Positions 16,179 to 21,480 of a stretch of 29,565 nt of DNA are shown one piece after another. How positions within the stretch are numbered: position 1 is the first letter of the stretch; every line of letters starts with the position of its first letter. The stretch is from a virus. Under the pieces are notes generated by a model. That model was not told the DNA's origin. It saw only the letters and a program-made list of their open reading frames with translations, and ran no database searches. A program made the translations under genes and the position numbers. The stretch is from UHGV virus genome UHGV-0175179; one strand, given 5' to 3'.

Positions 16179-17321
16179 ATGACCTGGCCGAATGTCAACG
16201 TCAGTCAGAAAAACCGCTTCAACGGCACAACGAACGACGTCGAGCGCGTCATCCTCTTTGTGGGTTACGGCGACACTAACATCGGGAAAACCCAGTCGCT
16301 GAATACCGACAGCGATCTGGATAAAGCCCTGGGCGACAAAGACAGCCTGTTAAAAAGCATTGTGGCCGCTGCGGCCAATAACGCCGGTCAGAACTGGTTT
16401 GCTTATGTGCACGTACTGGGGCAACCGGACACGGAAGCCGAGGGCTATAAACCAGACGAGGACTGGATGAACGCGGTCAAACAGGCCCAGAGCGTGGCAT
16501 CCGTGGAAGGGATCCTTCTGGCTTTTGATACCACCGACGCGGCCACCATTAACCGCGCAACGGAAATGCGCGTCACCTTACAGGCCAGTTTTGGGCGTTT
16601 TATCTGGTTTGCCCTTGCTGTGGGCGGGCCGGAAAAGGACGAAGCGTGGAGCGACTATGTGACGCGCCTGGCAACACTCCAGGACGGTATTGCATCGCCT
16701 GGGGTACAACTGGTCCCGCGTCTGTGGGGTAACGAACCCGGCGTCCTGGTCGGTCGCTTGTGTAACCGTTCGGTGACGGTGGCAGACAGCCCCGCCCGCG
16801 TTGCAACCGGCGCAGTCACCGCGCTGGGTCGCGACGGCCTGCCGGTCGACGGGACGGGGGTCGAAATTGATCTGGCCGTGTTGCAGTCTTTGCAGGCAAA
16901 CCGCTACAGCGTGCCGATGTGGTATCACGATTTTGACGGCATCTACTGGGCTGACGGTCGCACCCTGGACGTTGAAGGCGGTGATTATCAGGTGATTGAA
17001 AACGTGCGCGTGGTTGATAAAGCCTCCCGCCGCGTCCGTCTGCGTGCAATCCCCAAAATTGCCGATCGTTCACTGAACAGCACACCGGGCAGCATCGCCG
17101 CGCATGAAACCTATTTCGGCAAGCCGCTGCGCGAAATGGCGATTGCAACCCAGATCAATGGCGTCGAATTTCCGGGCGAAGTGAAACCACCAAAGGACGG
17201 CGATATCACCATCACCTGGACCAGTAACGAAGCGGTACAGATTTACCTTGTGGTTCGACCGTATGAGAGCGCGAAAGAAATCGGCGTCAGCATCGAACTG
17301 GACACCTCACTGGAGAGCTAA
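16179..17321 (+). CDS. Putative tail sheath protein (not P2 FI-like in sequence)
   Basis: 380-aa protein immediately upstream of a ~150-aa tube-like protein and the chaperone/tape-measure pair. Assignment by synteny and size. Confidence 0.5.
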   Translation: MTWPNVNVSQKNRFNGTTNDVERVILFVGYGDTNIGKTQSLNTDSDLDKALGDKDSLLKSIVAAAANNAGQNWFAYVHVLGQPDTEAEGYKPDEDWMNAVKQAQSVASVEGILLAFDTTDAATINRATEMRVTLQASFGRFIWFALAVGGPEKDEAWSDYVTRLATLQDGIASPGVQLVPRLWGNEPGVLVGRLCNRSVTVADSPARVATGAVTALGRDGLPVDGTGVEIDLAVLQSLQANRYSVPMWYHDFDGIYWADGRTLDVEGGDYQVIENVRVVDKASRRVRLRAIPKIADRSLNSTPGSIAAHETYFGKPLREMAIATQINGVEFPGEVKPPKDGDITITWTSNEAVQIYLVVRPYESAKEIGVSIELDTSLES

Positions 17322-17324
17322 TCA

Positions 17325-17780
17325 ATGAATGAACGTATTAGCGGTGGATCATTCGATGTGAACTACGACGGCATCATGATTCACGTCGAAAACGCCACCG
17401 TCACCATTACGGACAACAGCGCGGTAGCACAAACCCGCGGCGTCCCGAACGGCCACACGAAAGGGTCAGTTTCGGCGGATGTGGAAGTCGAAGTCGATTC
17501 CCAGAACTTTAAAAAGTTTACCGCCGTGGCCCGTTCGGCAGGTTCCTGGCGAGCCATTCCGGCAAAGGACTTTTTGTTCTACGCCAACGCCGGGGACGAC
17601 GAAGAAAAAATCGAGGTGTTTGGCTGCGTTCCGACGCTGTCTGACATCGTCAACATCAACCCCAACGAGGCCAGCAAAACCACGAAGAAAATTAAATTCA
17701 TGGTGACAAGCCCGGACTTTGTCGCGATTGACGGCGTGCCGTACCTGTCAGCCCGTGACACTCGCGATCTTAAAGGCTGA
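17325..17780 (+). CDS. Putative tail tube protein
   Basis: 151 aa, beta-rich, directly after the sheath candidate. Confidence 0.5.
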   Translation: MNERISGGSFDVNYDGIMIHVENATVTITDNSAVAQTRGVPNGHTKGSVSADVEVEVDSQNFKKFTAVARSAGSWRAIPAKDFLFYANAGDDEEKIEVFGCVPTLSDIVNINPNEASKTTKKIKFMVTSPDFVAIDGVPYLSARDTRDLKG

Positions 17781-17784
17781 CACG

Positions 17785-18096
17785 ATGATGAACGGAGAAA
17801 CGTCACTGCTTGAAAAGCTGTTGCTTATCGGGGCCGTGATCGGTCTGGGGCAACTGATGGTCAGCAATGAGCGAATCACAACCCGTCTGCTGGTCGGGCG
17901 GATGATTCTGGGATCTGCGGTCGCACCGCTGGCCGCAATCCCGCTACTGAAATTCCCCGATATGCCGGAACTGGTCGTCATTGGGCTGGCCTGCGCCCTG
18001 GGCATTCTGGGAAGCGCGTTTATTGAGGCCGGGTTAAAGCGCTGCCTGGATATGTATATCAAGCGATGGGGGAGCAAGCGCAATGAAACTGAGTGA
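17785..18096 (+). CDS. Holin (small membrane protein with three predicted TM segments)
   Basis: ~103 aa with three hydrophobic stretches (LLLIGAVIGLGQLMV, LLVGRMILGSAVAPLAAIPLL, LVVIGLACALGILGSAFIEAGL) and a charged C-terminus. Immediately upstream of the endolysin. Confidence 0.6.
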   Translation: MMNGETSLLEKLLLIGAVIGLGQLMVSNERITTRLLVGRMILGSAVAPLAAIPLLKFPDMPELVVIGLACALGILGSAFIEAGLKRCLDMYIKRWGSKRNETE

Positions 18097-18421
18097 AAAA
18101 CAGCAACTTTTCACGGTGATGATCGCCAACCTGATTCATTTTGCCGAAGAAAAGGGTTATCGCCTGACGTTTGGCGAAGCGTACCGCACGCCGGAACAGG
18201 CCGCGCTTAACGCAAAAAATGGGAGCGGCATTACTAACAGCCTGCATACCCAGCGCCTGGCGGTGGATTTTAACCTGTTTGTTAACGGCGAATACCAGAC
18301 CGACAGTGCCGCATATCGCCCCCTGGGCGAATACTGGGAATCTATCGGCGGATCGTGGGGTGGCCGTTTCAGTAAGCCGGACGGGAACCATTTCAGTCTT
18401 GAGCATAACGGGGTTCGCTGA
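18083..18421 (+). CDS. Endolysin, peptidase M15-type (L-alanyl-D-glutamate / VanY-like zinc peptidase fold)
   Basis: SLHTQRLAVD fits the SxHxxGxAxD zinc-binding motif and DGNHFSLEH supplies the distal His. 112 aa. Flanked by holin and spanin genes. Confidence 0.7.
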   Translation: MKLSEKQQLFTVMIANLIHFAEEKGYRLTFGEAYRTPEQAALNAKNGSGITNSLHTQRLAVDFNLFVNGEYQTDSAAYRPLGEYWESIGGSWGGRFSKPDGNHFSLEHNGVR

Positions 18422-18804
18422 TGCGTAATTTGCTGGGTCTTTTGCTGATTCTGGTCGCTGCGATGTCAGCGGGCTGGCAGGCGCATGACTGGCACGACGC
18501 AAAGCTGAAACTCGCTGCCAGTGAAGCGGCAGAACAAACGCGCCAGATTGTCGTTGATATGACGCAACAGTCTGGCGCCGCGCTGGAAGCAAAACTCGCG
18601 GAGCTGAGGGCCAATGAAATTCACACGGAACGGGTTATCCGCACGGAAACCATTAAGCCGGTTTTTAGCAACGTTTGCGCTTCTGATGATTACGTCCGGT
18701 TGTTCAACGAAAGTGCAGATCAAGCCGAACGAAAATTATCAGGAAAACCAGCTGACACTTTGCCCGGTCACGCTGCCACGTCTGGCCGGACCGACCGGAA
18801 ATGA
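18421..18804 (+). CDS. i-spanin (Rz / LysB-like)
   Basis: N-terminal TM segment (LLGLLLILVAAMSAGW) followed by a charged helical region (AKLKLAASEAAEQTRQ...LEAKLAELRANE). Start overlaps the endolysin stop. Confidence 0.65.
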   Translation: MRNLLGLLLILVAAMSAGWQAHDWHDAKLKLAASEAAEQTRQIVVDMTQQSGAALEAKLAELRANEIHTERVIRTETIKPVFSNVCASDDYVRLFNESADQAERKLSGKPADTLPGHAATSGRTDRK

Positions 18805-18910
18805 CTTTGACGCGGCGCTGAAAGCCTACCGGCTGATGTATACCGACTGCGCCGCCCGACATAACGCCCTGGTGGGCAACATTCGACAACGTAAGGAATT
18901 TGCACAATGA
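18614..18910 (+). CDS. o-spanin (Rz1 / LysC-like outer-membrane lipoprotein), overlapping the i-spanin gene in another frame
   Basis: Signal peptide with lipobox LLMITSGC. Starts inside the i-spanin gene and extends beyond it. Stop overlaps the next gene's ATG. Confidence 0.65.
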   Translation: MKFTRNGLSARKPLSRFLATFALLMITSGCSTKVQIKPNENYQENQLTLCPVTLPRLAGPTGNDFDAALKAYRLMYTDCAARHNALVGNIRQRKEFAQ

Positions 18911-19176
18911 GTAAACCGAAAAAAATCGCCATGACCGTGGCGGGCGTAAATCTGAGCTTTGAGCCGAATAAAACCGCGTTTAACAACCTGCTTAACGAAA
19001 TGACCATGACCAATAAGGTTGCCCCTATGGTGACGTATCTGGGCCGCATTGTTGATGCCGAGTGTAAAGAGTCGCTCAACAAGCTGATGGAAGATTATCC
19101 GGGTTGCGAAATGCAGATCGTCGAGAAAGTTAACGAGATTTACTCCCCCAAACTTGAGATCGAAGTAAAAAACTGA
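18907..19176 (+). CDS. Tail assembly chaperone (P2 gpE / lambda gpG analogue), short form
   Basis: 89-aa ORF immediately upstream of the tape measure gene. Ends with slippery heptamer A_AAA_AAC in the zero-frame register. Confidence 0.6.
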   Translation: MSKPKKIAMTVAGVNLSFEPNKTAFNNLLNEMTMTNKVAPMVTYLGRIVDAECKESLNKLMEDYPGCEMQIVEKVNEIYSPKLEIEVKN

Positions 19177-19364
19177 CGGCGCGGGTAGCGGCCATTCGCA
19201 CAAATGCGCTTGAGCAATACCTTGCCCTGCGCCGCTACTACCTCCCGCACGAAGCCGACGACGAAGAAAGCATCGCCCGCGCCCTGTGGCTGGACGAATA
19301 TTTCGCCCAGACCCGCGCCAGCAAGACGGCGGAAGGGATAGCCATCGCATTTAACGGAAACTGA
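18907..19364 (+). CDS. Tail assembly chaperone frameshift-extended form (gpE+E' / gpGT analogue) via -1 programmed frameshift
   Basis: The -1 frame is open from 19173 to a TGA at 19362-19364 with no internal ATG. It fills exactly the otherwise empty 190 bp before the tape measure start at 19366. Confidence 0.55.
19167..19173 (+). other. Programmed -1 ribosomal frameshift slippery site A_AAA_AAC
   Basis: Heptamer AAAAAAC in the X_XXY_YYZ register relative to the chaperone frame, 1 nt before the zero-frame stop. Confidence 0.55.
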
Positions 19365-19365
19365 T

Positions 19366-21480
19366 ATGAGCCACCTGGATTTTACCCTGAGCCTGATCGA
19401 TAAGCTGACGCGGCCATTAAAGACGGCCCAGTCTTCGTTGTCCGGCTTTGCTGAAAAATCGCAGGCGTCTTTTACAAAAATCGGGATCGGTGCGGCGGCT
19501 GTCTGGGGGGTGGCACAGTCCATCGCGGGCGTGGTGGGTCCGGCGTATGAGATGAACGCCGCACTTGCAGAAGTGGGTTCCAAAGGCGTGGCAGAGGACG
19601 CGCTGAAGCGTCTGTCCGGTGAAGCCATGCGATTCAGTATGCGCTACGGCAAAGGGGCCGTTGATGTGGTCCGGTCAAGCTATGCGATGAAAGGCGCAAT
19701 GGCGGGCCTGTCCGATATGGACCTGCCCCGCGTCACCATCGCGGCCAATACCCTGGCCGCAGGCGTCAAGGCCAGCGGCGAAGAGGCAGGCGAATACATC
19801 GGCGCGATGGCGTCACGCTTCAACGCGGAGTTGTCCAGTCTGGGCCATGTACGTTTTGCCGAAGAGCTGGCAGGGAAAACGGCGTACATGGTGCAAAACT
19901 TCGGCGTGAAAATGCAGACCATGCAGGAGCTTATCGAGGGGACGAAAAGCGCCGGTGCTGACTTTGGCGTCAGCCTGGATGAACAGTTCGCCGTCCTGGG
20001 TACGCTTTCGCGCACGCTGGGTACTGAGGCCAGCGGGATCTACGAGCAGTTTTTACGCAGCGCCCCGGCTGCCGCTGAAAAGCTGGGTATGAGCTTTGTC
20101 GATGCCACCGGAAAAATGCTGCCGATGGGTGACATTCTGCAAAAACTTCAGAGCAAATACGGGCAGAGCATTGAAGGAAACGTCAAGGCACAACAGGCGC
20201 TGGACGCCGCGTTCGGTGGTGGTGCTGACGTTATCAAAAAGCTGTACGGTCAGCAGGATAAATTAAACCGCAGCATCACCGAACTGGGCAGAAATGACGG
20301 GATGAAACGCGCCCAGGAAATGGCCGAACGAATGGCCGAGCCGTGGGAACGTATCAAAGCGACATTCTTTGCCATTCGCGCGGCGATTGGTAACACGCTG
20401 ATCCCTATCCTGTCGCCGCTGATGAACCGTATTGCCGACGTGGGGACAAAATTTGCCCGCTGGCTGGATATGTTCCCGAATATTGCCCGCTGGCTGGGTT
20501 ACATCACCCTGGGCGTGTTGTCATTCGGGCTGGCCGGGGCGGCGGTCAATATCGTGATGGGGGTCTTTGGCTTCACCATGACGGGGCTGGCCGCAATCGC
20601 TAAGGTACTGGGCGGCGCATGGAAACTCCTGTTATGGACGCTCAACCTGTTGCGTCCGTCCCTGCTGACGACGCGCATCGGTCTGGCTGCATTGTGGATC
20701 CAGTCAAAATTACTGGCGCTGTGGACGGGCGTCTGCCGCATCGCGCTTGCTGCATGGAATATCGCGTTAAAGGCCGGGGCCATTGCCATGCGGGTTTACG
20801 GCGCGGCGACCATGTTTGCCGGGGCTGCAATGCAATTCCTGATGAGTCCGATCACCCTGATTATTGCCGCGCTGGCACTTCTGGCCGTGGGGGTCTGGTA
20901 CGTCGTCACCCATTGGGAAGAACTGGCGGCAGCGGTCATGAATACGGCGGCTTTTGACTGGGTGATGTCGGTCGCGGAACAGGTGGGCCAGGTGTTTGCG
21001 CAGGTCTGGCAGTCCATCACTGACGGCTGGGCCGTGGTGGTTGATTTCTTTGCCGGTCTTTCCCCGCTTGCCACCTTTGAAGGGTTCGCACAAACCATCG
21101 GCGGGGTATTCAGCAAACTTTTTGACGTCCTCAAAAATACCTTTGCGTCTACCTATAACTGGATTGTGGAGAAGTTAAACAAGATCCCCGGCGTCAACAT
21201 CGACCTGAAAACCGTTTCGCCACCGGCAGCGGCTGCCGTTCCGGCAAACGCGGTCATTCCTGACAGTGCTGCAGGTTCGTCGAAGCTGAACAGCCCGTCA
21301 GTGCTGACGGGGAACCGAATTAATGCAGACATCCCACGCGGCGGCCTGATGAGTCAGGTTAAAACCGACAGCAAAACCGCCGTTGATAACCGTAAATCGT
21401 GGGGCGATACCTACATCAACGCCCCCAATGGAATCACCCCGGCCCAGTTGGCTGAATGGCAGGAGCTTAACGCAGGATGA
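19366..21480 (+). CDS. Tail tape measure protein
   Basis: 704 aa, Ala/Gly-rich with hydrophobic segments in the C-terminal half. Follows the frameshifted chaperone pair. Confidence 0.85.
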   Translation: MSHLDFTLSLIDKLTRPLKTAQSSLSGFAEKSQASFTKIGIGAAAVWGVAQSIAGVVGPAYEMNAALAEVGSKGVAEDALKRLSGEAMRFSMRYGKGAVDVVRSSYAMKGAMAGLSDMDLPRVTIAANTLAAGVKASGEEAGEYIGAMASRFNAELSSLGHVRFAEELAGKTAYMVQNFGVKMQTMQELIEGTKSAGADFGVSLDEQFAVLGTLSRTLGTEASGIYEQFLRSAPAAAEKLGMSFVDATGKMLPMGDILQKLQSKYGQSIEGNVKAQQALDAAFGGGADVIKKLYGQQDKLNRSITELGRNDGMKRAQEMAERMAEPWERIKATFFAIRAAIGNTLIPILSPLMNRIADVGTKFARWLDMFPNIARWLGYITLGVLSFGLAGAAVNIVMGVFGFTMTGLAAIAKVLGGAWKLLLWTLNLLRPSLLTTRIGLAALWIQSKLLALWTGVCRIALAAWNIALKAGAIAMRVYGAATMFAGAAMQFLMSPITLIIAALALLAVGVWYVVTHWEELAAAVMNTAAFDWVMSVAEQVGQVFAQVWQSITDGWAVVVDFFAGLSPLATFEGFAQTIGGVFSKLFDVLKNTFASTYNWIVEKLNKIPGVNIDLKTVSPPAAAAVPANAVIPDSAAGSSKLNSPSVLTGNRINADIPRGGLMSQVKTDSKTAVDNRKSWGDTYINAPNGITPAQLAEWQELNAG

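What the first reader, a model, noticed from the sequence alone, without database searches (positions are those of the whole stretch)
19140..19365. Programmed -1 frameshift in the tail chaperone gene (A_AAA_AAC)
The chaperone ORF ends at 19176 and the tape measure starts at 19366. The intervening 190 bp has no gene in the zero frame, but the -1 frame is open from 19173 to 19364 and has no start codon of its own. The slippery heptamer AAAAAAC (19167-19173) is in the correct register. This is the conserved G/GT-type or E/E+E'-type frameshift, normally missed by gene callers.
Basis: partly seen in the sequence, partly recalled or inferred. Interest (0 to 1): 0.5.

Follow-up and report, generated by a model that had tools for sequence, protein, structure and literature searches.

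The report
Tail chaperone programmed -1 frameshift
An HP1-like (P2-family) prophage almost certainly makes a second, longer tail-assembly chaperone when a few ribosomes slip back one base at AAAAAAC at the very end of the chaperone gene; this is an ordinary, well-known kind of phage recoding, but public annotations of this phage group miss it.

Summary
The chaperone ORF 18907-19176 (89 aa, Pfam Phage_TAC_10) ends with A_AAA_AAC (19167-19173) in register, followed directly by TGA. The -1 frame is open 19158-19364, has no ATG/GTG/TTG, and stops 1 nt before the tape-measure ATG (19366).

- The 63-codon extension matches Pfam DUF6890 (E 2e-22).
- Its codon differences among relatives are 60% synonymous in the -1 frame, against 11% and 5% in the other two + frames.
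- It is never interrupted in the roughly 130 relatives examined.
- Its conservation runs right up to the heptamer.
- 73 species genomes were retrieved through the extension's own motif. Of the 72 usable, 68 carry A_AAA_AAC or A_AAA_AAA at the junction, and 4 Yersinia carry A_AAG instead. None is fused in frame.

No public annotation I viewed for this group joins the two ORFs; P2's E+E' is joined. A -1 slip gives a 152-aa (17 kDa) G-T-like fusion.

Ribosomal slippage is favoured over RNA-polymerase slippage, because the Yersinia variant breaks the A run. No experiment was possible. A_AAA_AAC is a weak shifter in E. coli reporters (0.16-0.74%), so the yield is probably low. Verdict: new member of a known kind, modest interest.

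The parts
18907..19176 (+). Tail assembly chaperone gene (G-like, zero-frame product of 89 aa, 10.1 kDa), stop TGA included
   Evidence: ORF listing. PF10963 Phage_TAC_10, E 7.9e-30, and phrog_1214. AlphaFold model with pLDDT 81; Foldseek hits 3fgx_A (TM 0.74) and the HK97 tail assembly chaperone 2ob9_B (TM 0.54, prob 0.77).
19158..19176 (+). Overlap stretch: the only place where the zero frame is still being read and the -1 frame is already open
   Evidence: In relatives this stretch shrinks to 10 nt (tga|AGTAAAAAAC|TAA in ESSI-2 and YenM_324), which pins the shift to the heptamer.
19167..19173 (+). Slippery heptamer A_AAA_AAC in X_XXY_YYZ register (zero-frame codons GTA AAA AAC)
   Evidence: Present in 47/47 close relatives, and as A_AAA_AAC or A_AAA_AAA in 14/14 distant phages. 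Present in 68 of 72 usable species genomes retrieved through the downstream domain, not through the heptamer.
19174..19176 (+). Zero-frame stop codon directly abutting the heptamer (possible 'shifty stop' context)
   Evidence: The stop is TGA, TAA or TAG in relatives, but directly after the heptamer in all except one lineage, Parashewanella L067. A functional role is inferred, not shown.
19173..19364 (+). -1 frame extension (T-like domain, 63 codons, LTARV...AFNGN, plus stop TGA 19362-19364); equals Pfam DUF6890
   Evidence: PF21830, E 2.3e-22; phrog_7050, E 4.7e-25. No ATG/GTG/TTG. Codon differences among 36 distinct relatives are 60% synonymous in this frame against 11% and 5% in the others, with 0 stops. 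No conserved start codon.
19177..19234 (+). Predicted RNA stem-loop starting 3 nt after the heptamer (candidate, unproven stimulator)
   Evidence: strand folding gives -27.3 kcal/mol, z -2.33, with 4/200 shuffles as stable. There is no common consensus structure across the family. Even so, the 60 nt 3' of the heptamer are more structured than background in 20 lineages: mean z -1.87 vs -0.24, Mann-Whitney p 1e-7.
19366..21480 (+). Tail tape measure protein gene (704 aa), starting 1 nt after the stop of the -1 extension
   Evidence: PF10145 PhageMin_Tail, E 1.9e-18; phrog_28 tape measure, E 2e-86.
16179..17780 (+). Tail sheath (16179-17321) and tail tube (17325-17780) genes upstream, defining the tail module
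   Evidence: Sheath: PF10758 and phrog_907. Tube: PF10772 Phage_HP1_Orf24 and phrog_1182.

Best explanation
This is a programmed -1 ribosomal frameshift of the phage tail-assembly-chaperone (lambda G/GT, P2 E/E+E') kind, in an HP1-like member of the Peduoviridae about 97% identical to Salmonella phage SI7.

Proposed mechanism:
- Most ribosomes translate 18907-19173 and terminate at TGA 19174-19176. This gives the 89-aa chaperone.
- A small fraction slip back one base on A_AAA_AAC (19167-19173). tRNA-Lys re-pairs from AAA to AAA, and tRNA-Asn from AAC to AAA.
- The slip happens either during translocation or while the adjacent stop codon waits in the A site.
- Those ribosomes then read CUG at 19173 and continue for 63 codons to TGA 19362-19364.
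- The product is a 152-aa (17.2 kDa) fusion whose C-terminal part is the DUF6890 domain.

By analogy with lambda gpG/gpGT, both proteins would coat the tape measure protein, and the minor fusion would recruit the tube subunit. Neither would be in the virion.

Shown here: the signals, their register, the coding status and conservation of the -1 frame, and the absence of any other route to express it. Inferred: that slippage is ribosomal, its low efficiency, any stimulatory role of the adjacent stop or of the downstream stem-loop, and the assembly function.
For: Anatomy.

Domain identity: the chaperone is PF10963 and the extension is PF21830/phrog_7050. The chaperone model has a TAC-like fold.

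Coding in the -1 frame:
- 439 synonymous against 293 non-synonymous codon differences (60% synonymous).
- The other + frames give 11% and 5%.
- The last 63 codons of the chaperone gene give 50% in its own frame.
- There are 0 stops in 36 distinct sequences, against 2-6 and 1-8 in the other frames.

Minus-strand ORFs are excluded: 6% synonymous, and interrupted in relatives.

No independent initiation:
- The window has no start codon in the frame.
- Starts in relatives scatter over residues 5-58. In six lineages the first one lies after the conserved LRRxYLP...ARAxWL core.
- Residues 1-18 of the extension are conserved up to the heptamer.
- Of 1.84 billion representative proteins, only 12 match the extension. 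All are 45-61 aa and begin at different points. None is a longer or in-frame fusion.

Conservation of the site:
- 47/47 close relatives.
- 14/14 distant phages, including HP1, F108, K139, phiO18P, PV94, SMHB1 and PY3.
- 68 of 72 usable species genomes retrieved via the extension motif.
- The overlap can be as short as 10 nt.

Ribosomal rather than transcriptional: four Yersinia species have GTA_AAG_GAA_TAA. This breaks the A run but creates A_AAG, the most shift-prone tetramer in E. coli (PMC4066793).

Precedent: A_AAA_AAC is the proven natural site of IS1 (PMC4066793). The class is described in PMC5009743, and P2 E/E+E' in PMC3091744.
Against: - No protein, ribosome-profiling or reporter data were available.
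- In E. coli reporters A_AAA_AAC is a poor shifter: 0.16% unstimulated, 0.19% and 0.74% with IS911 and IS3 stimulators (PMC4066793, Table S3). That is close to background and below the few percent reported for other tail chaperones (6-7% in PMC3711429).
- No RNA stimulator is conserved across the family. The window's own stem-loop is only moderately unusual (z -1.7 to -2.3).
- No Rfam frameshift element matches.
- The heptamer as a string is not over-represented in the window.
Confidence: 0.85

Rival explanations
1. Transcriptional slippage. RNA polymerase occasionally adds one A in the A6 run (19167-19172). A subset of mRNAs then encodes the same fusion in one frame, with junction ...VKK-LTARV instead of ...VKN-LTARV.
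For: The site is a homopolymer run, A6 here and A7 in the Vibrio-type relatives. Sequence alone cannot separate the two routes. Runs of A are known slippage sites (PMC5009743, PMC4066793).
Against: - From my own knowledge of the published cases, productive slippage by bacterial RNA polymerase generally needs runs of about 8-9 or more.
- A clade of four Yersinia species keeps the two-frame arrangement with GTAAAGGAATAA. This has only three consecutive A's but a good ribosomal A_AAG site.
- An A7 run near the 5' end of the same gene (18919-18925) would then be an even stronger, harmful slippage site.
Confidence: 0.08
2. The -1 ORF is an independent small gene (a 'DUF6890 family protein', as in RefSeq). 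It would be translated from its own, possibly non-canonical, start, or by termination-reinitiation at the CTGA overlap.
For: RefSeq and GenBank annotate short ORFs here in some relatives. Examples are a TTG start at residue 19 in E. coli, a GTG start at residue 5 in SI7, and ATG at residue 16 in some Vibrio phages.
Against: - The window has no ATG/GTG/TTG in the frame.
- Start positions are not conserved. In several lineages they lie after the conserved core.
- Conservation extends upstream of every annotated start, to the heptamer.
- The codon at the stop overlap is CTG, CTA or ATA in different relatives, so it is not a conserved initiator.
- Database hits begin at many different positions.
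Confidence: 0.04
3. There is no recoding. The open -1 frame and heptamer are a chance or decaying remnant, for example of an ancestral fused gene, with no product today.
For: The heptamer string occurs at chance frequency in the window. The measured slipperiness of A_AAA_AAC in E. coli is near background.
Against: - Purifying selection acts on the -1 frame across relatives whose chaperones are only 26-50% identical.
- No stop appears in any of about 130 sequences.
- The extension length is fixed at 60-64 codons, and the frame ends at or within about 35 nt upstream of the tape measure start in the relatives examined.
- The zero-frame Val/Ile/Leu and Lys third-codon positions inside the heptamer are invariant, while all nine upstream third positions vary (unbiased set).
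Confidence: 0.02

Closest known systems
Bacteriophage lambda gpG/gpGT (and the conserved tail-chaperone frameshift of Xu, Hendrix & Duda 2004, as summarised in PMC5009743)
   Same: - Two overlapping ORFs lie directly upstream of the tape measure gene.
[quoted passage not shown]
- The second ORF has no start of its own.
- The arrangement is conserved although the sequences are not.
   Different: - The slippery site is A_AAA_AAC abutting the stop; lambda uses G_GGA_AAG.
- This is a contractile-tail phage.
- A lysis cassette separates the tube gene from the chaperone gene.
- The protein families differ (Phage_TAC_10 + DUF6890).
- Function and product ratio are untested here.
Bacteriophage P2 E / E+E' (Christie et al. 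2002; annotated in NC_001895; PMC3091744)
   Same: - Same virus family (Peduoviridae) and the same gene order: sheath, tube, chaperone, tape measure.
- Very similar sizes: 91 and 142 aa in P2, 89 and 152 aa here.
- A -1 shift on a homopolymeric heptamer.
- No required downstream structure is reported for P2.
   Different: - P2 uses T_TTT_TTG, with the stop 6 codons downstream.
- P2's proteins are PF10109 + PF06528.
- No sequence or profile similarity to the proteins here was detected.
- P2's fusion is annotated as a joined CDS. None of the 16 HP1-like records viewed has a joined CDS.
IS1 insA-insB' frameshift
   Same: It uses the same heptamer, A_AAA_AAC, in enterobacteria. It works at low efficiency and has no established stimulator (PMC4066793).
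   Different: It is a transposase fusion with a regulatory purpose, and the proteins are unrelated. Only the signal type is shared.
Pfam DUF6890 (PF21830) / phrog_7050, 'unknown function'
   Same: The -1 extension is a full-length match: residues 19-62 to the 44-position model, E 2.3e-22.
   Different: - The family is modelled as a stand-alone 44-aa protein.
- Here, and in all relatives examined, it is the C-terminal part of a 60-64 codon frameshift extension.
- The conserved sequence continues 18 residues upstream of the model, to the slippery site.

Membership tests
Tail assembly chaperone G/GT-type programmed frameshift | Two overlapping ORFs between the major tail (tube) gene and the tape measure gene, the second ending at the tape measure start | tested here: met
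   Gene order: tube 17325-17780, lysis cassette 17719-18910, chaperone 18907-19176, extension to 19364, tape measure from 19366. The tube and chaperone genes are not adjacent, because a holin/endolysin/spanin cassette lies between them, as in HP1 and K139.
Tail assembly chaperone G/GT-type programmed frameshift | The upstream ORF is a tail assembly chaperone | tested here: met
   PF10963, E 7.9e-30. The predicted fold matches the HK97 tail assembly chaperone 2ob9_B (TM 0.54, prob 0.77) and 3fgx_A (TM 0.74).
Tail assembly chaperone G/GT-type programmed frameshift | The downstream ORF is in the -1 frame, lacks its own initiation signal, and is under protein-coding selection | tested here: met
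   No ATG/GTG/TTG. No conserved start in relatives. 60% synonymous differences in the -1 frame against 11% and 5% in the others.
Tail assembly chaperone G/GT-type programmed frameshift | A canonical slippery sequence X_XXY_YYZ, in register, inside the overlap | tested here: met
   A_AAA_AAC at 19167-19173. The overlap is only 10 nt in some relatives.
Tail assembly chaperone G/GT-type programmed frameshift | The arrangement is conserved among relatives despite sequence divergence | tested here: met
   47/47, 14/14 and 72/72 usable loci keep the two-frame arrangement. 68 of the 72 keep the A-rich heptamer.
Tail assembly chaperone G/GT-type programmed frameshift | A fusion protein is actually made, at a low fixed ratio to the short product, and both are needed for tail assembly but absent from virions | not testable with these tools
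   This needs Western blot or mass spectrometry, and genetics. Reporter data for the bare heptamer in E. coli are 0.16-0.74% (PMC4066793).
P2 E/E+E' protein families (PF10109 Phage_TAC_7 + PF06528 Phage_P2_GpE) | Sequence homology of the chaperone and of the frameshift extension to P2 gpE and E' | tested here: not met
   The Pfam families differ. BLASTP E 0.33. hhalign probabilities 0.2-0.3%. The resemblance is one of architecture only.
Pfam DUF6890 (PF21830) | A match above the gathering threshold to the family model | tested here: met
   78.9 bits against a cut-off of 23.6, covering model positions 1-44 of 44.
dnaX / IS3-type stimulated -1 frameshift | A conserved downstream stem-loop or pseudoknot, and/or an upstream Shine-Dalgarno-like stimulator | tested here: inconclusive
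   - No family-wide consensus structure and no Rfam hit.
- The region 3' of the heptamer is nevertheless more structured than background in 20 lineages.
- Several Vibrio-type phages have strong hairpins 6-8 nt downstream.
- The window has z -1.7 to -2.3.
- An upstream SD was not tested systematically.

The most novel reading that the evidence does not exclude
The signal may be a distinct 'heptamer plus shifty stop' design. An intrinsically weak heptamer (A_AAA_AAC or A_AAA_AAA) is kept directly against the zero-frame stop codon in nearly every lineage, with any of the three stop codons. Lineage-specific hairpins follow it rather than a conserved structure. Under this reading, slow termination, meaning competition between release factor and the -1 re-paired tRNA, would set the chaperone-to-fusion ratio instead of an RNA stimulator. 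As a by-product, Pfam DUF6890 would be re-defined as the tube-recruiting 'T' domain of HP1-type tail chaperones.
Probability: 0.25. Interest if true: 0.4.

Novelty: new member of a known kind. Interest (0 to 1): 0.25.

Why it matters
For practical annotation:
- The HP1-like Peduoviridae and their many prophages in Escherichia, Salmonella, Enterobacter, Yersinia, Xenorhabdus, Photorhabdus, Aeromonas, Vibrio, Haemophilus and Pasteurella should carry a joined, ribosomal-slippage CDS here.
- The 16 HP1-like records I viewed show either a gap or a truncated 'DUF6890 family protein' or 'hypothetical protein' with an arbitrary start.
- The finding gives a Pfam domain of unknown function a concrete role: the frameshift-encoded C-terminal domain of a tail assembly chaperone.

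For the frameshifting field:
- This is a naturally conserved use of a heptamer that is nearly inert in E. coli reporters.
- The heptamer almost always abuts a stop codon. That makes it a convenient natural test case for context effects, namely the stop codon and variable hairpins.

It does not change what is known about phage tail assembly.

Tried and rejected
1. Search for an already fused protein. The search for homologous proteins with the 152-aa fusion returned only 85-92 aa chaperones. phmmer of the extension against 1.84 billion representatives returned only 12 short fragments. No natural in-frame fusion is available as a 'Rosetta stone'.

2. Family-wide RNA structure. RNAalifold on 44 sequences gave essentially nothing, -0.55 kcal/mol. 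Rfam gave no match.

3. Homology to P2 E/E'. BLASTP and hhalign were negative. A sequence search of the PDB gave only a chance hit.

Only the chaperone part was modelled.

I replaced it with a degenerate DNA pattern for LRRxYLP...ARAxWL.

6. Literature:
- No paper in the searchable library mentions DUF6890.
- None describes the frameshift in HP1-like phages.
- Christie et al. 2002 could not be opened.
- Xu et al. 2004 did not surface in the library searches and was not read, so I cannot say whether its survey already lists HP1.

7. Rejected readings:
- Stop-codon readthrough, because the zero frame closes again after 3 codons.
- A +1 shift, because the +1 frame closes within 12 codons.
- Genes on the minus strand.

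Full report
**What is in the sequence**

- The window is an HP1-like member of the Peduoviridae. Region 18600-19700 is 97% identical to Salmonella phage SI7 (genus Irrigatiovirus) and 96% identical to prophages in 18 complete E. coli genomes.
- Tail module order:
  - sheath 16179-17321 (PF10758, phrog_907)
  - tube 17325-17780 (PF10772, 'HP1 Orf24')
  - a lysis cassette: holin, M15 endolysin and overlapping spanins, 17719-18910
  - an 89-aa ORF, 18907-19176
  - a 189-nt stretch with no conventional gene
  - the 704-aa tape measure gene from 19366
- The 89-aa protein is a tail assembly chaperone (PF10963 Phage_TAC_10, E 7.9e-30). Its AlphaFold model (pLDDT 81) is a beta-hairpin followed by four helices. 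In the PDB it best matches 3fgx_A (TM 0.74) and the HK97 tail assembly chaperone 2ob9_B (TM 0.54).

**Checking the observation**

- The ORF ends ...GAA GTA AAA AAC TGA. The heptamer is at 19167-19173, phased A_AAA_AAC, and the stop is at 19174-19176.
- The -1 frame is open from 19158 to the TGA at 19362-19364 and has no ATG, GTG or TTG. The tape measure ATG follows 1 nt later.
- The zero frame closes again 3 codons after the TGA, so readthrough leads nowhere. The +1 frame closes within 12 codons.
- The heptamer as a bare string is not unusual: 9 copies in the window against 9.5 expected. The case therefore rests on context and comparison.

**Is the -1 frame a real coding sequence?**

- Its 63-aa translation (LTARVAAIRTNALEQYLALRRYYLPHEADDEESIARALWLDEYFAQTRASKTAEGIAIAFNGN) matches Pfam DUF6890 (PF21830, E 2.3e-22) and phrog_7050 (E 4.7e-25). 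Both are listed as of unknown function.
- Among 36 distinct ungapped relatives, 62 of 63 third codon positions vary, against 44 first and 35 second positions.
- Codon differences from the window are 60% synonymous in the -1 frame, against 11% in the zero frame and 5% in the +1 frame. The last 63 codons of the chaperone gene give 50% in its own frame.
- The -1 frame never contains a stop. The other two frames always do.
- Two long minus-strand ORFs overlap the region (18826-19350 and 19140-19628). They show 6% synonymous differences and are interrupted in relatives, so they are spurious.

**Can the domain be expressed without recoding?**

- The window has no start codon in the frame.
- In relatives, possible starts scatter over residues 5, 8, 12, 13, 16, 17, 19, 21, 24, 38 and later. 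In six lineages the first one lies beyond the most conserved core, LRRxYLP...ARAxWL.
- Public records reflect this:
  - RefSeq E. coli calls a 45-aa 'DUF6890 family protein' from a TTG that is CTG in the window.
  - SI7 calls a 59-aa hypothetical protein from a GTG that is GTA in the window.
  - HP1, K139, PV94, SMHB1, PY3 and YenM_324 leave the stretch empty.
- The extension's first 18 residues, upstream of all those starts, are conserved from the enteric phages to HP1, K139 and the marine Vibrio phages. The pattern is [LI]xxR[VA]xxI[ED]xNxLEQ.
- The codon overlapping the stop is CTG, CTA or ATA in different lineages. Termination-reinitiation on a fixed initiator is therefore not available.
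- In 1.84 billion representative proteins, only 12 match the extension. All are 45-61 aa, begin at different positions, and none is part of a longer protein.
- A search with the full fusion found only 85-92 aa chaperones.

**Conservation of the shift site**

- In 47 of 47 close relatives (chaperone identity 100-50%), the gene ends ...A_AAA_AAC followed at once by TGA, TAA or TAG, and the extension is exactly 63 codons.
- tblastn of the fusion against 50,697 phage records hit 67 records, each as two pieces. For the 14 records inspected, the two pieces lie in different reading frames.
- In the 14 divergent phages inspected, the gene ends A_AAA_AAC or A_AAA_AAA plus stop, with a 60-64 codon extension. 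These include HP1, F108, K139, L9-1, phiO18P, A051, PV94, yong1, SMHB1, PY3, two Vibrio cyclitrophicus prophages, ESSI-2 and YenM_324. Their chaperones are 26-51% identical to the window's by alignment.
- The stretch between the upstream -1-frame stop and the zero-frame stop is as short as 10 nt (tga AGTAAAAAAC TAA). That leaves the heptamer as the only possible shift site.
- To avoid selecting on the heptamer, I scanned one genome for each of 185,579 species with a degenerate pattern for the extension's own motif. It found 73 loci. Results:
  - 66 have A_AAA_AAC plus stop.
  - 1 has A_AAA_AAA plus stop.
  - 1 (Parashewanella) has A_AAA_AAA, one more codon, then the stop.
  - 4 Yersinia species have GTA_AAG_GAA_TAA.
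  - 1 is cut off by the end of the fetched stretch and cannot be read.
  - None is fused in frame, and none has a conserved start.

**Ribosome or RNA polymerase?**

- A run of six A's could in principle also give an extra A in the mRNA.
- The Yersinia variant argues against that as the family's mechanism. It breaks the run to three A's but creates A_AAG. That is the most shift-prone tetramer measured in E. coli (PMC4066793).
- An A7 run near the start of the same gene (18919-18925) would be a worse liability under a polymerase-slippage regime.
- I therefore favour ribosomal slippage. This step is an inference.

**How efficient, and what stimulates it?**

- In E. coli reporters, A_AAA_AAC gives 0.16% without a stimulator, 0.19% with the IS911 stimulator and 0.74% with the IS3 pseudoknot.
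- The corresponding values are 0.41, 0.82 and 24.8% for A_AAA_AAA, and 0.29, 4.3 and 39% for A_AAA_AAG (PMC4066793, Table S3).
- The same paper lists IS1 as a proven natural A_AAA_AAC case with no known stimulator.
- The expected yield is therefore low, which suits a chaperone fusion needed in small amounts. For lambda the ratio is about 30:1 (PMC5009743).
- No structure is shared across the family, and Rfam has nothing.
- The 60 nt after the heptamer are nevertheless more structured than other 60-nt windows of the same loci in 20 lineages: mean z -1.87 against -0.24, Mann-Whitney p 1e-7. The lineages are not fully independent.
- Several Vibrio-type phages have strong hairpins starting 6-8 nt downstream, with z between -3 and -4.4.
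- The window's own stem (19177-19234) has -27.3 kcal/mol and z -2.33.
- The near-invariable contact between heptamer and stop codon, with all three stop codons in use, suggests a 'shifty stop' contribution. This is untested.

**Comparison with known systems**

- The architecture is that of lambda G/GT and, more closely, of P2 E/E+E'. P2 is in the same virus family, has 91 and 142 aa products against 89 and 152 aa here, and shifts -1 on T_TTT_TTG. Its record annotates the fusion as a joined CDS (PMC3091744).
- The proteins are not detectably homologous to P2's. The Pfam families differ (PF10109 + PF06528 against PF10963 + PF21830), BLASTP gives E 0.33, and hhalign probabilities are below 1%.
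- This is therefore a member of the functional class, not of the P2 protein families.

**Novelty and verdict**

- The phenomenon is textbook.
- New within what I could search: this chaperone family uses it throughout, no viewed annotation records it, and DUF6890 is its frameshift-encoded domain.
- No paper in the library mentions DUF6890 or the HP1-group frameshift. I could not read Xu et al. 2004, which may already list HP1.
- Verdict: observation confirmed, interpretation supported, new member of a known kind, interest about 0.25.

Noticed in passing
window 18614-18910 (+), overlapping 18421-18804 (+): A 98-aa ORF in another frame overlaps the 3' part of the i-spanin-like gene. It has a lipoprotein-type signal (…LLMITSG|C) and a weak Rz1/LysC Pfam hit (E 0.038), so it looks like an o-spanin. 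The E. coli RefSeq record and phage SI7 do not annotate it. Yersinia phage YenM_324 annotates the equivalent ORF as an O-spanin.
   Followed up: partly
window 17719-18910: A complete lysis cassette (holin PF04550, M15 endolysin PF13539, two spanins) sits inside the tail operon, between the tube gene and the tail chaperone gene. The annotated HP1 and K139 regions likewise show an endolysin and a spanin-like gene directly upstream of the chaperone. The chaperone is therefore not adjacent to the tube gene, unlike in lambda or P2.
   Followed up: partly
L077, L087, L088, L112 (Yersinia massiliensis, Y. pekkanenii, Y. proxima, Yersinia sp. HM-2024): In this clade the heptamer is replaced by GTA_AAG_GAA_TAA. 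The -1 extension is intact and would be entered via the tetramer A_AAG, one codon further upstream (junction ...VK-GITAL...). This is a natural change of slippery site within one gene family.
   Followed up: partly
L067 (Parashewanella MAG): This is the only lineage in which the zero-frame stop does not abut the heptamer: GTA_AAA_AAA_TCA_TAG.
   Followed up: no
L051 858-936, L053 858-936, L054 849-927, L052 840-918, L058 873-951: Strong hairpins of differing sequence (8-13 bp stems, z -3 to -4.4) lie in the 60 nt after the heptamer in Vibrio phages yong1, PV94 and L9-1, Salinivibrio phage SMHB1 and Pasteurella phage F108. In yong1 and SMHB1 the stem starts 6-8 nt after the heptamer. The stems do not share alignment columns, so RNAalifold finds no consensus.
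   Followed up: partly
window 18919-18925: An A7 run (AAA CCG AAA AAA ATC) lies near the 5' end of the chaperone gene, in XXX_ZZZ_N phasing. I did not examine its conservation or any slippage there.
   Followed up: no
L003 1-196; L048 304-882; L051 1-141: Probable annotation slips in public records:
- The sheath homologue of Yersinia phage YenM_324 is labelled 'topoisomerase'.
- K139 orf30 is annotated about 100 codons too long, running back into the spanin region.
- yong1 gp35, next to the lysis genes, is labelled 'DNA-directed RNA polymerase subunit alpha'.
   Followed up: no
window 19173-19361 vs P2 E' (L060 2686-2858): The only stretch that hhalign aligns between the DUF6890 extension and P2 E' is ALRRYYLPHEA against AVIFHWPPSEL. 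Both are aromatic-aromatic-x-P-x-E motifs at a similar distance from the shift site. The alignment is not significant (prob 0.2%), but it could hint at a shared tube-binding motif.
   Followed up: no
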